From contig CAZVNE010000001.1 in NCBI GenBank assembly GCA_964628535.1, forward strand, positions 8,792 through 72,791: a stretch of 64,000 nt of DNA, given 5' to 3'. Below the pieces are notes generated by a model, which saw only the letters and a list, made by a program, of their open reading frames with translations, did no database searches and was not told the DNA's origin. This stretch comes from an uncultured Candidatus Nanopelagicus sp. (GTDB taxonomy: Bacteria > Actinomycetota > Actinomycetes > Nanopelagicales > Nanopelagicaceae). The stretch's first letter is position 1, and every line of letters begins with the position of its first letter. Positions 22,178 to 37,009 of this stretch are shown piece by piece. The position numbers and the translations under genes are program-made.

Positions 22178-23332
22178 CTAACTAATTTTTGCTGCAGAGA
22201 TTGCACTTTGAATATCTGCCCACAGATCATCAACATTCTCTATACCAACTGAGAGTCTAATTAAATTCTCGGGAATGCTCTTGCTCTCACTTGGCCAACG
22301 TCGACGACGCTCCCATAAAGATTCGACGCCACCGAGTGAGGTAGCGTTTGTAATTAATTGGCTGGCATCACACATCTGATCAACTTGAGCAACATTTGCA
22401 TTAACCTCAAAGGAGATGATTGCACCAAACCCCTTCATAAAGGATTTAGCTCGCTCATGAAATGGATCTGTTACTAATCCTGGATATCTAACCCTAGATA
22501 TTTGTGGGTGATTTGCTAATCGTTGCGCCAACTCCATTGCATTCGCCTGGGCTCTGCTCATTCGAATTGAAAATGTACGTAGGCCACGAAGTGCAAGCCA
22601 TGCTTCAAATGGACCGGCAATAGCTCCGCCATAACGGCGAGATTGCTCTAGTCGATTATTTAATGCTGGGTCCGTGACTGAAGTTGATCCTAATAAAAGA
22701 TCACTGTGTCCAGATAGGTACTTAGTAACTGAGTGAATTGAAATATCAGCACCCATCGCAAGTGGGTTTTGGATCATTGGTGTTGCCAAGGTGTTATCAA
22801 CTGCAACACCACAACCAGCAGCTTTACCAGCGGCAATTAACCTTGGCAGATCAACAATTTCAAGTGCTGGATTGATTGGAGATTCAATAAATAACATTTG
22901 GCAGCCAGGCAGTTGTGCCAGAGTCGATTCAGTATCTGCTAAATCTACAAATCTAACGGTTAATCGACCATCATCATGCATCTGTTTCAACATAGTGGTG
23001 GTGCCTTGATATCCATGATCGGATGCAACAACTACACCGCCAATTGGCAGTAGTGAAAAGACAGATGAGATCGCAGCCATGCCAGATGAGTAAATCAAAG
23101 TTTGACCACCTTCAAGGGCTGAGATCGCCTCCTCTAAAGCACTCCAACTCTCATTACCAAATCGGCCATAACCGATCTCGCCACCAACATGAAAGGTTGA
23201 GTTCAAAGCGATTGATGGATTTAATGCGCCATCTGCCTTCTTTGCTGGTCTGCCAGCGGCAACAACCTTGGAGTCATTGTGATACTTACTCCAAGTATTA
23301 TTTGAATTATTATTTGAATTATTGTTGCTCAT
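22178..23332 (-). CDS. Cys/Met metabolism PLP enzyme (cystathionine gamma-synthase/lyase family)
   Basis: YGR, SSGMAA, DNT, HSVTKYLSGHSD and SLGGVES motifs. Confidence 0.92.
   Translation of the reverse strand: MSNNNSNNNSNNTWSKYHNDSKVVAAGRPAKKADGALNPSIALNSTFHVGGEIGYGRFGNESWSALEEAISALEGGQTLIYSSGMAAISSVFSLLPIGGVVVASDHGYQGTTTMLKQMHDDGRLTVRFVDLADTESTLAQLPGCQMLFIESPINPALEIVDLPRLIAAGKAAGCGVAVDNTLATPMIQNPLAMGADISIHSVTKYLSGHSDLLLGSTSVTDPALNNRLEQSRRYGGAIAGPFEAWLALRGLRTFSIRMSRAQANAMELAQRLANHPQISRVRYPGLVTDPFHERAKSFMKGFGAIISFEVNANVAQVDQMCDASQLITNATSLGGVESLWERRRRWPSESKSIPENLIRLSVGIENVDDLWADIQSAISAAKIS
23297..23323. repeat. 12-bp tandem duplication encoding N-terminal NNNS repeats
   Basis: (ATTATTTGAATT)x2 plus partial copy. 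Confidence 0.7.
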
Positions 23333-34264: not shown

Positions 34265-35542
34265 TTATGAACCGTGTTCCCAAGAGTTTAGGTAAAGCTC
34301 TTGTGCTGGTGTTAGTTGATCAAGCTCTGCACCCATGCTGGCCAGCTTTAAGGTTGCAACATTCTTATCAATCTCTGTTGGCACATTGTGTAGGCCAGCA
34401 GTTAATGATTTACCAACCTTTAGTAGCCACTCAGCGGTTAAGGCTTGATCAGAGAATGACATATCCATTACTGATGCCGGGTGGCCTTCAGCTGCACCTA
34501 GATTTGCTAGGCGGCCTTCTGCGATTAACAAAATACGACGACCATCTTTCATCTCATACTCATCTGTTTGAAAGCGCATCTTTGCATTTTTGTTCTTTGC
34601 ATTTTTCTCTAACCAGGCAACATCAATCTCGATATCAAAGTGTCCTGAGTTAGCCAGAATTGCGCCATCCTTCATCTGCGTAAAGTGCTCATCGCGCAGA
34701 ACATCGCGGTTACCAGTGACTGTAATAAAAATATCGCCAATTGCGGCCGCCTTTGTCATTGGCATTACTCGGAATCCTTGCATCATTGCATCTAAGGCCT
34801 TTGTTGGATCAATCTCAGTAACAATTACCTCAGCGCCTAGACCTTTTGCACGCTCGGCAACACCCTTACCGCAGTAGCCAAAACCTGCAACTACGACAAT
34901 CTTGCCCGCTACTAAAGTATTTGTGGCACGGAAAATTGCATCAAATGTTGATTGGCCAGTTCCGTAACGATTATCAAACATGTGCTTCGTGTCAGTGTCA
35001 TTTACTGCAATCATTGGGAATTTAAGTGCACCATCCTTAGCCATTTGGCTTAGACGAATAACACCAGTAGTCGTCTCCTCGCAGCCAGCAATTACGCCAT
35101 CTAATAACTCGGTGCGTGTTGTATGTAAAACATTTACCAAGTCACAACCATCATCAAATACAAATTGTGGCTTGATATCTAGCGCAGCATTTAAATGTTT
35201 GTAATACCCATCGCGATCAACTGCGTTACGGGCATAGACAGAGATTCCATACTCTTTTACAAGAGCAGCTGCAGTGTCATCCTGTGTTGAAAGTGGATTA
35301 GATGCACATAATGCTAATTCAGCACCGCCTGCTTTCAATGCCAACATTAAATTTGCAGTCTCAGTTGTGACATGCATACAAGCTGCAATACGAATACCAG
35401 CGAATGGTCGCTCTTTGGCAAACCGCTCTTTGATTTGATTTAGCACCGGCATATTTCGGCCAGCCCATTCAATTCTCTTCTTGCCTTCTGCAGCTAAGGA
35501 TAGATTTGCTACATCATTATTTATCACAGTAGTGGTGCTCAT
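34265..35542 (-). CDS. ahcY: Adenosylhomocysteinase (short 425-aa type)
   Basis: SNPLSTQD, EETTTG, KHMFDNRYGTGQS, GHFDIEID and EGHP motifs. Confidence 0.97.
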   Translation of the reverse strand: MSTTTVINNDVANLSLAAEGKKRIEWAGRNMPVLNQIKERFAKERPFAGIRIAACMHVTTETANLMLALKAGGAELALCASNPLSTQDDTAAALVKEYGISVYARNAVDRDGYYKHLNAALDIKPQFVFDDGCDLVNVLHTTRTELLDGVIAGCEETTTGVIRLSQMAKDGALKFPMIAVNDTDTKHMFDNRYGTGQSTFDAIFRATNTLVAGKIVVVAGFGYCGKGVAERAKGLGAEVIVTEIDPTKALDAMMQGFRVMPMTKAAAIGDIFITVTGNRDVLRDEHFTQMKDGAILANSGHFDIEIDVAWLEKNAKNKNAKMRFQTDEYEMKDGRRILLIAEGRLANLGAAEGHPASVMDMSFSDQALTAEWLLKVGKSLTAGLHNVPTEIDKNVATLKLASMGAELDQLTPAQELYLNSWEHGS

Positions 35543-35545
35543 TTT

Positions 35546-35650
35546 CGCTCCTAATTAAGTTATGTATCTTTGACTTTTTTCTTAATTATTACCGAGGCTA
35601 GTGGGCTCACTATGTAGGTAACCAGAAGGCAAAGATACCCTGAATGGACG
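35546..35650 (-). promoter_or_regulatory. Candidate structured cis-regulatory RNA leader of ahcY
   Basis: Nested complementary segments GTATCTTTG/CAAAGATAC, TTACC/GGTAA and TAGTG/CACTA, plus crossing TAATTAAG/CTTAATTA abutting SD AGGAG. Confidence 0.45.
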
Positions 35651-35653
35651 GGG

Positions 35654-37009
35654 TTATCGAGTTTTAATAACTGCTAGTACAGCATCTCGAATCTTCTTCA
35701 TCTGCGCTTGCGTATTGGCCTCTACATTTAATCGAAGTAATGGCTCGGTATTTGATGCCCGCAGATTAAACCACCAGGTATCGGCGGTAAAGGTCAGGCC
35801 ATCTAACTCATCAATCTCAGATTGATCTTGATAAGCATTACGAACTCTTGCAATTGCAGCTGGTAGATCTTTGACCTCACTATTTATTTCGCCACTGGAA
35901 AAGTAACGATTGTATGGGGCTAGTAATTCAGATAGTGGCTTCTTTGTTGCCATTAACTCTGCTAAGGCGTACAGCGCAGCCAACATGCCAGAGTCGGCTC
36001 GCCAAAAGTTTGCAAAGTAGAAGTGGCCGCTGTGTTCGCCACCAAATATTGCACCAGACTCTGCCATTAACTTTTTAATGTATGAGTGCCCAACTCGACT
36101 GCGAAGAGCCACTCCACCATTTTCAGCGATTACCTCGGGTACCGCTTTAGATGAGATTAAATTATAAATAATGGTTGATCCAGCCTTTGCCTTTAACTCA
36201 CGGACTGCAATTAAAGATGTTAGGGCTGATGGATTCACTAACTCACCATTCTCATCAACTAAAAAACATCGATCTGCATCACCATCAAAAGCCAAGCCAA
36301 TATCTGCGCCCTCTTTCTTTACCCGTTTTTGTAAAGCAATTAAGTTTGCGGGTTCGATTGGGTTTGCCTCGTGATTTGGAAATGTGCCATCTAACTCGAA
36401 GTACATAGGTGTTAGATCCACCTTTAGCTTTGCCATCACCGCAGGTGCGGTAAATCCAGCCATTCCATTTCCGGCATCAATCACAACCTTTAATTTTCGT
36501 TTTTGGAAAGTACCATCTGGAAAGGTTCCAAGTAGGTAATCAACATACTCACTTAATAGATCTTGCTGGTGGCTCATTCCAACTGGCCGATTAATCATTG
36601 GTGCGCCATCTTCAATAAATTTTCTAATTTGCAGTAAGCCAGATTCTTGACCAATAGGTATGGCGCCAGATTTACACAATTTCATTCCATTGTATTGAGC
36701 GGGATTATGACTTGCAGTGAACATGATGCCTGGTAAATTTAATTTGCCCGATGCAAAGTACAACATATCGGTAGATGCCAATCCAATTCTGATTACATCC
36801 ATACCTTGACTATTTGCACCATCTGAAAATGCATCAGCAAGTAATGGTGAGGATGGCCGCATATCTTCACCGACCACAATGGTGGCTGGCTCTCGTTCAA
36901 TCTCTAGAAAGCGGGCAAATGCAACACCAAGGGCGAAGGAGAAATCTGGGGTTACCTCTTTATCAACCAAACCACGGATATCGTAAGCCTTGATGATTTT
37001 TCCAAGCAT
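35654..37009 (-). CDS. manB: Phosphomannomutase/phosphoglucomutase
   Basis: TASHNP, DGDADR, GEHSGH and RASNTEP motifs. Confidence 0.95.
   Translation of the reverse strand: MLGKIIKAYDIRGLVDKEVTPDFSFALGVAFARFLEIEREPATIVVGEDMRPSSPLLADAFSDGANSQGMDVIRIGLASTDMLYFASGKLNLPGIMFTASHNPAQYNGMKLCKSGAIPIGQESGLLQIRKFIEDGAPMINRPVGMSHQQDLLSEYVDYLLGTFPDGTFQKRKLKVVIDAGNGMAGFTAPAVMAKLKVDLTPMYFELDGTFPNHEANPIEPANLIALQKRVKKEGADIGLAFDGDADRCFLVDENGELVNPSALTSLIAVRELKAKAGSTIIYNLISSKAVPEVIAENGGVALRSRVGHSYIKKLMAESGAIFGGEHSGHFYFANFWRADSGMLAALYALAELMATKKPLSELLAPYNRYFSSGEINSEVKDLPAAIARVRNAYQDQSEIDELDGLTFTADTWWFNLRASNTEPLLRLNVEANTQAQMKKIRDAVLAVIKTR

What the first reader, a model, noticed from the sequence alone, without database searches (positions are those of the whole stretch)
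35543..35653. Candidate novel riboswitch-like pseudoknot in the ahcY leader
Seen (mRNA sense): GUAUCUUUG-ccuucugg-UUACC-uaca-UAGUG-agcc-CACUA-gccuc-GGUAA-UAAUUAAG-aaaaaagu-CAAAGAUAC-auaa-CUUAAUUA-GGAG-cgaaa-AUG. A 9-bp P1 encloses two nested 5-bp stems. An 8-bp helix crosses P1 and ends on the first base of the SD, as either a pseudoknot or a competing fold. A 111-bp leader is unusual in this compact genome. Known: ahcY is often controlled by SAH/SAM riboswitches, and several of these are SD-proximal pseudoknots. I do not recognise the SAH or SAM-I/II/IV/V consensus here.
Basis: partly seen in the sequence, partly recalled or inferred. Interest (0 to 1): 0.7.

Follow-up and report, generated by a model that had tools for sequence, protein, structure and literature searches.

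The report
Small conserved hairpin leading ahcY mRNA
The proposed pseudoknot riboswitch is not supported, because half of its main stem is the gene's promoter, but the small hairpin nested inside it recurs with compensating base changes in front of the SAH-hydrolase gene in five genera of abundant freshwater Actinobacteria and is probably an uncatalogued regulatory RNA site.

Summary
The window is from Ca. Nanopelagicus (acI). All four helices are in the 111-nt manB-ahcY gap as written. The 9-bp P1 is not a conserved RNA stem: its 5' arm is the genus-wide extended -10 promoter box (inferred start about 35625-35623), and its 3' arm is broken in sister genomes with 98-99% identical AhcY. Without P1 there is no pseudoknot; the 8-bp helix is a subclade-specific hairpin abutting the SD.

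What survives is the nested part: a 4-5 bp stem capped by an RGYC tetraloop just after the predicted start. It occurs in about 10 of 36 AhcY lineages of Nanopelagicaceae (5 genera), with different stems but the same loop type; shuffles reach at most 5. A longer form with an outer stem is shared with Planktophila, once per genome, only before ahcY. No Rfam family matches, while a real SAH riboswitch elsewhere was detected.

Best reading: a cis-regulatory RNA hairpin read by a protein (0.45); a compact riboswitch is possible (0.12). Nothing was tested by experiment and no RNA reads were available. The scan noted a different ahcY hairpin in Acidimicrobiales before (e1-5293829); my models do not cross-match it.

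The parts
35654..37009 (-). manB (phosphomannomutase/phosphoglucomutase), upstream gene; no terminator-like site found between it and ahcY
35632..35640 (-).
   Evidence: Shared by 49 distinct Nanopelagicus leaders whose downstream sequence differs; the aligned box sits 7-8 nt before a leaderless ATG in genus g37, L123 and L186; TANNNT lies 6 nt before an in-frame ATG 158 times in this genome versus 12-31 at other spacings except 7; PMC3898074
35623..35625 (-). Predicted transcription start (6-8 nt after the box); inferred, not measured
35589..35621 (-). Long form of the motif: outer stem (35621-35617 / 35593-35589), internal loop with CA on the 5' side and GCC on the 3' side, inner hairpin
   Evidence: Invariant in the 7-leader subclade; aligns with the Planktophila leader; model R1 finds one copy per genome, at ahcY
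35599..35612 (-). Core hairpin: 5-bp stem with AGCC tetraloop (loop 35607-35604); RGYC loop class across lineages
35552..35588 (-). 8-bp AU-rich hairpin (35588-35581 / 35559-35552) ending on the first base of the SD; subclade-specific, a plain hairpin once P1 is discounted
   Evidence: Intact in 4 of 7 subclade leaders, one mismatch in L085, replaced in L086 and L284; folds next to the nested stems from the predicted start
35564..35572 (-).
35548..35552 (-). Shine-Dalgarno AGGAG
   Evidence: sequence
34265..35542 (-). ahcY, adenosylhomocysteinase, short form (425 aa); followed without a gap by mtrA

Best explanation
The leader holds the ahcY promoter followed by a small cis-regulatory RNA hairpin. 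Transcription starts about 6-8 nt after the -10 box (inferred), so the mRNA begins with the nested stem, then a lineage-specific AU-rich hairpin, then the SD. The conserved feature is a 4-5 bp stem displaying an RGYC tetraloop within about 8-23 nt of the start (shown by comparison). Free stem sequence with a fixed loop is the signature of a site read by a trans-acting factor, most likely an RNA-binding protein not identified here (inferred). Binding would hold the 5' hairpin folded and tune translation initiation or stability of the ahcY-mtrAB message; in the long form the 3' strand of the outer stem can instead pair towards the SD, giving a plausible on/off choice (computed, 2-4 kcal/mol apart). 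The element is found only in lineages that lack the divergent MerR-like gene and operator seen beside this ahcY type in relatives, so it may have taken over that control (inferred).
For: At least eight different stems carry the same loop class. All four inner pairs show double-sided changes, 3-4 Watson-Crick pair types each (rows were chosen for having the hairpin). Unbiased test: one leader per AhcY lineage at 92% identity, 36 lineages, mean 10.4 with an RGYC hairpin (minimum 7) against a maximum of 5 for the best of 3456 equally loose loop patterns in 500 shuffles. With the loop left free in the search, 33 of 33 ahcY-linked Planktophila-type hits have AGCC. 0 of 30 malY upstream regions have such a hairpin. 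G-U pairs lie inside the 4-bp core in four hairpin types and A-C in one probably chance case; loop changes are all of one strand sense. Some lineages carry a second RGYC hairpin nearer the SD. MerR-like gene found only in genera g32, g39, g42, in none of the hairpin-bearing genera sampled.
Against: The element is missing from many sister lineages, including most Nanopelagicus, and from genomes that also lack the MerR-like gene, so the replacement idea is not one-to-one. At 88% identity clusters the excess is marginal (4.5 of 17 versus a shuffle maximum of 4). No candidate protein was identified and no copies before metK, metH or malY were found. SD-occluding folds 2-4 kcal/mol below SD-free folds are common in any leader. 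A second TANNNT (35600-35595) overlaps the hairpin's 3' side and scores as well as the main box in this genome.
Confidence: 0.45

Rival explanations
1. The 12-14 bp inverted repeat is a DNA operator for a dimeric repressor, placed just after the -10 box, with half-sites drifting along with the protein.
For: Position (+3 to +25) is typical of operators (own knowledge); perfect stems read equally on both strands; relatives control this ahcY with a palindromic operator and a MerR-like gene.
Against: The arms vary and the asymmetric spacer is fixed, the reverse of an operator; G-U inside the core; no further sites above the reversed-pattern control in five genomes; the MerR-like gene was not found in hairpin-bearing genera.
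Confidence: 0.18
2. A 5'-terminal stabilising hairpin with a favourable NGNN-type tetraloop, with no conditional regulation.
For: Lies at or near the predicted 5' end; in several genera it is followed by an unstructured AU-rich linker with no switch; it is lost cleanly in sister lineages.
Against: Generic stabilisers need no fixed loop; RGYC is not among the common stable loops of this genome's upstream regions; the long form keeps unpaired CA and GCC across two genera.
Confidence: 0.2
3. The long form (about 31-35 nt) is a compact metabolite-binding on-switch for SAH, adenosine or homocysteine, and the short forms are degenerate remnants.
For: Gene context; conserved internal-loop and terminal-loop bases; computed alternative fold that buries the SD in one Planktophila group; by eye the junction resembles the P2 arm of the RF01057 consensus printed; in one group the loop can pair 5 nt downstream with one compensatory change (L322).
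Against: Very small; the outer stem needs a register shift between Planktophila groups; single gene target; the SAH P1/P4 elements are missing; no SAH or SAM model hit up to E 10; loop pairing is absent in four other hairpin types.
Confidence: 0.12
4. One reading: a P1-enclosed pseudoknot riboswitch with the 8-bp helix crossing P1, formed on manB read-through RNA.
For: The helices exist and exceed shuffle chance; no terminator-like site separates manB from ahcY, so read-through RNA could contain the 5' arm.
Against: Outer five P1 pairs are 54% paired in the seven closest leaders, with no double-sided change; of 49 leaders with the same box only this genome has a 9-nt complement, median 5; RNAalifold does not recover P1.
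Confidence: 0.03

Closest known systems
SAH riboswitch (Rfam RF01057; SAH motif of PMC1950547)
   Same: Sits in ahcY leaders; a canonical copy precedes ahcY in another class of the phylum (L647, 44.4 bits); loose by-eye likeness of the long form to the P2 arm of the consensus.
   Different: No CCGAG/CUCGG P1 enclosing the element, no GAGCG or AACGGCGC pseudoknot strands; no hit in the genome or leader; half the size.
SAM-Chlorobi motif (RF01724; PMC2864571)
   Same: Lineage-restricted orphan RNA motif before metK/ahcY, next to promoter-like sequence; reported not to bind SAM or SAH in preliminary probing.
   Different: Different phylum, no model hit, and here only ahcY is served, not metK.
SAM-IV, SAM-I/IV, SAM-II/V, SAM/SAH, SAM-VI riboswitches
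   Different: No Rfam 15 match in the window or in 15 related loci; no conserved pseudoknot here.
Protein-bound leader hairpins with fixed loops and free stems (CsrA/RsmA GGA hairpins, ANTAR dual hexaloops, PyrR loops; from own knowledge)
   Same: Short stem, fixed loop, sometimes two copies with one near the SD: what the element works like.
   Different: Loop is an RGYC tetraloop, matching none of these; no cognate protein identified.
Acidimicrobiales ahcY leader hairpin noted earlier in this scan (e1-5293829; unpublished AI note)
   Same: About 40 nt at the 5' end of an ahcY mRNA in the same phylum; stem, asymmetric loop, short stem, tetraloop with G at position 2 (my loci are presumed to be that family).
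   Different: Different sequence and pairing; precedes the long-form AhcY; models R1, R2 and R3 do not cross-match.

Membership tests
SAH riboswitch RF01057 | Covariance-model match at or near the 37-bit cut-off | tested here: not met
   positive control L647 scores 44.4
SAH riboswitch RF01057 | P1 core plus P4 pseudoknot strands | tested here: not met
   Consensus compared with the leader and relatives
SAH riboswitch RF01057 | Selective SAH binding | not testable with these tools
   needs probing
Other SAM-class riboswitches and Rfam cis-regulatory motifs | Match to any of 4227 Rfam 15 models | tested here: not met
   only unrelated chance hits up to E 10; none at gathering in 15 loci
Riboswitch in general | Conserved, covarying secondary structure 5' of metabolically related genes | tested here: inconclusive
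   core hairpin covaries; outer stem weakly; one gene family only
Riboswitch in general | Expression platform that changes SD access or termination | tested here: inconclusive
   alternative SD-burying fold in one Planktophila group and weakly here; none in the short forms; no terminator
Protein-binding leader hairpin | Fixed loop on a stem of free sequence, on the transcribed strand near the RBS | tested here: met
   transcription itself inferred
Protein-binding leader hairpin | A cognate RNA-binding protein | not tested
   no candidate sought genome-wide; only the MerR-like gene was checked
Actinobacterial sigma-A promoter | TANNNT box 6-8 nt before the start, often preceded by SRN | tested here: met
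   PMC3898074; start not measured

The most novel reading that the evidence does not exclude
The long form (outer stem, CA/GCC internal loop, short stem, AGCC loop) is a new, very compact riboswitch class sensing SAH, adenosine or homocysteine that switches on ahcY translation in acI, one of several independent small ahcY leader RNAs in Actinomycetota that replaced the SAH riboswitch or a MerR-type regulator.
Probability: 0.12. Interest if true: 0.8.

Novelty: new variant of a known kind. Interest (0 to 1): 0.42.

Why it matters
acI bacteria are among the most abundant in lakes and have shed most regulation, so an RNA element kept before ahcY in five genera points to a control on the methyl cycle (or on the co-transcribed mtrAB) that is still under selection. 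I found no description of it in Rfam 15 or in the papers searched. It gives a defined 33-nt test object with natural variants. If a protein reads it, the protein is an unknown regulator; if a metabolite does, it would be among the smallest aptamers known. It also shows how a promoter box can pass for a riboswitch stem in single-genome reading.

Tried and rejected
Rfam scans: nothing relevant. Regulon search: no hairpin before metK (operonic) or metH (leaderless) in this genome; RGYC hairpins before other genes of this genome, including glyA and pyrR, are at background frequency and were not followed; exact-pattern hits before uraA and kgd are single genomes at about control level. A weak R1 hit before malY-metB in G103 (E 0.004 per genome, 100 genomes) is not conserved and lies upstream of a leaderless promoter: rejected. 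R1 weakly matches ahcY's own codons for the GRLANLGAAEGH stretch, but that stretch shows no synonymous constraint (rank 248 of 348): treated as coincidence. No ahcY-independent copies among scanned genome or viral contigs except one inside a coding region; no phage match. Not found in 29 short-form ahcY leaders from other classes by R1. First clusterings by leader sequence over-merged lineages and were replaced by AhcY-based lineages. REP, MtrA box, ANTAR and PyrR readings were considered from memory and did not fit the loop or spacing; not formally tested.

Full report
Setting. The window is 42% G+C and the region reads, on the minus strand, manB (35654-37009), a 111-nt gap, ahcY (34265-35542), mtrA, mtrB, a comF-like gene and secA. 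The closest AhcY proteins come from Ca. Nanopelagicus and Ca. Planktophila, so this is an acI actinobacterium.

The observation. In shuffles of the gap a 9-bp helix is uncommon (1.5%) and a 9+8 pair was not seen in 1500 trials, but 14 of 125 real gaps of similar length in this genome have a 9-bp helix and 4 have both. The region as a whole folds no better than shuffles (z -1.1). No Rfam family matches, even up to E 10, and RF01057 finds nothing in the genome; the same scan does detect a real SAH riboswitch before ahcY in another class of the phylum.

P1 is not a conserved RNA stem. I collected 226 distinct manB-ahcY gaps from the family. The 5' arm of P1 lies in a block shared by 49 distinct Nanopelagicus leaders whose downstream sequence is otherwise unrelated. 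That block has the form of an actinobacterial extended -10 box (PMC3898074). In this genome TANNNT stands 6 nt before an in-frame ATG 158 times and 7 nt before 50 times, against 12-31 at other spacings, and TATCTT is among those boxes; metH is a clear leaderless case. In the sister genus g37 the aligned box is followed 7-8 nt later by the ahcY ATG itself (L123, L186). The start is therefore inferred at 35625-35623, downstream of the P1 5' arm. The 3' arm is broken in genomes whose AhcY is 98-99% identical: the outer five pairs are only 54% paired over the seven closest leaders, with no double-sided change, only this genome of 49 has a 9-nt complement (median 5), and RNAalifold does not recover P1. 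Read-through from manB is possible, as no terminator-like site was found, so P1 could form in this one genome, but nothing suggests selection for it. A caveat: a second TANNNT at 35600-35595 scores as well as the main box; it is not kept in Planktophila.

The 8-bp helix. From the predicted start the RNA folds into the nested stems followed by this helix as an ordinary hairpin. It is intact in four of seven subclade leaders, has one mismatch in a fifth and is replaced in two. It may dampen ribosome loading, but it is not a pseudoknot.

What is conserved. The inner hairpin recurs just after the predicted start in five genera (g1 subclade, g26, g27, g29, g36), with at least eight different 4-5 bp stems and loops AGCC, GGCC, GGUC or AGUC. 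On an ungapped alignment all four inner pairs show changes on both sides; those rows were picked for having the hairpin, so I also ran an unbiased test. Taking one leader per AhcY lineage at 92% identity (36 lineages), on average 10.4 carry an RGYC hairpin, while the best of 3456 equally loose loop patterns reaches at most 5 in 500 shuffles; at 88% identity the margin is small (4.5 of 17 versus 4). With the loop left free in a genome-collection scan, 33 of 33 ahcY-linked hits had AGCC. None of 30 malY upstream regions from the same family has such a hairpin. G-U pairs occur inside the core in four hairpin types, which favours RNA over a DNA palindrome, though only mildly. Some lineages carry a second copy nearer the SD. 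Many lineages, including most Nanopelagicus, lack the hairpin and have short or leaderless messages.

The long form. The query subclade and most Planktophila share more: an outer stem, CA on the 5' side and GCC on the 3' side of an internal loop, and the AGCC loop. The outer stem is invariant in the query subclade and pairs in Planktophila, but two groups need a one-base register shift, so its support is weaker. A model of this form finds one copy per genome, at ahcY. In one Planktophila group the 3' strand of the outer stem can instead pair through to the SD, about 3 kcal/mol more stably than the SD-free fold; here the difference is 3.6 kcal/mol with a weaker helix. Such margins are common and are not evidence of switching. 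In another group the loop can pair with three bases 5 nt downstream, with one compensatory event via a wobble intermediate (L322, L327), but four other hairpin types lack this.

Context. Relatives outside these lineages place a divergent MerR-like gene and a palindromic operator before the same short-form ahcY. In a 60-genome family sample that gene was found only in g32, g39 and g42, never in hairpin-bearing genera, and not in this 86%-complete genome. No copy of the hairpin was found before other methyl-cycle genes.

Mechanism. Shown by comparison: a fixed loop on a free stem, at a fixed place in the ahcY leader. Inferred: it is transcribed, it is read by a trans-acting factor, most likely a protein, and binding tunes translation or stability of the ahcY-mtrAB message (0.45). 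RNA reads could not be obtained.

Comparison with what is known. It is not an SAH or SAM-class riboswitch by any tested feature. It works like protein-bound leader hairpins and resembles in status the orphan SAM-Chlorobi motif (PMC2864571). I found no paper describing it. All three end in a short stem with a tetraloop bearing G at position 2, but the three models do not cross-match, so homology is not shown.

Verdict. Observation partly confirmed, pseudoknot riboswitch not supported, a smaller uncatalogued conserved RNA element supported. Interest 0.42.

Noticed in passing
L625:2972-3008 (-), L626:1362-1398 (+), L615, L628, L632, L636, L637, L639, L643: A second uncatalogued motif in ahcY leaders of another Actinomycetota class (presumed Acidimicrobiia): conserved GCUGUCAY, a covarying 5-bp stem with a UGAU loop, then GCCGAC; 9 of 30 loci from 7 families, 100% paired, 2 pairs with double-sided change, no Rfam hit in the loci scanned. 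It looks like a better riboswitch candidate than the present finding.
   Followed up: partly
L638:1336-1379 (+), L646:1392-1435 (+) and eight more loci: About 40-nt hairpin with an AGNN-type loop at the start of ahcY mRNAs in the same class; probably the motif of e1-5293829.
   Followed up: partly
L647:1326-1446 (+): Canonical SAH riboswitch (RF01057, 44.4 bits) before ahcY in an Actinomycetota genome; the motif was first described mainly from Proteobacteria.
   Followed up: no
L111:1028-1429 (-), L113:1028-1378 (-), L185:1011-1400 (-), L203, L204, L207, L209, L210, L266: A divergent MerR-like HTH gene with a TGACA...TGTCA palindrome precedes short-form ahcY in many actinomycetes; a possible SAH-cycle regulator for which my one literature search found no description.
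   Followed up: partly
window 34265-35542; L115-L118, L267-L282: AhcY here is the short form. Several actinomycetes (for example Actinomadura) carry long-form and short-form ahcY in tandem, so acI may have kept the second gene of such a pair rather than received an in-place replacement. No tree test was made.
   Followed up: partly
window 34491-34517 (-); L185:2505-2543: The Planktophila-type leader resembles ahcY's own codons for the GRLANLGAAEGH stretch (E 0.007 in the best case); no synonymous constraint there, left unexplained.
   Followed up: yes
L123, L186 (genus g37): ahcY is leaderless in the genus closest to Nanopelagicus, so leader and SD were gained or lost wholesale between sister genera.
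   Followed up: no
G000 C12:26727-27620 and C60:933-1826: Two similar but not identical copies of the mshC-metH junction in this assembly, possibly strain mixing in the bin.
   Followed up: no
window 22178-23332: The metB-like gene is present, but the malY-like gene that precedes it in G103 was not found with this query in this genome or its closest relative G032.
   Followed up: no
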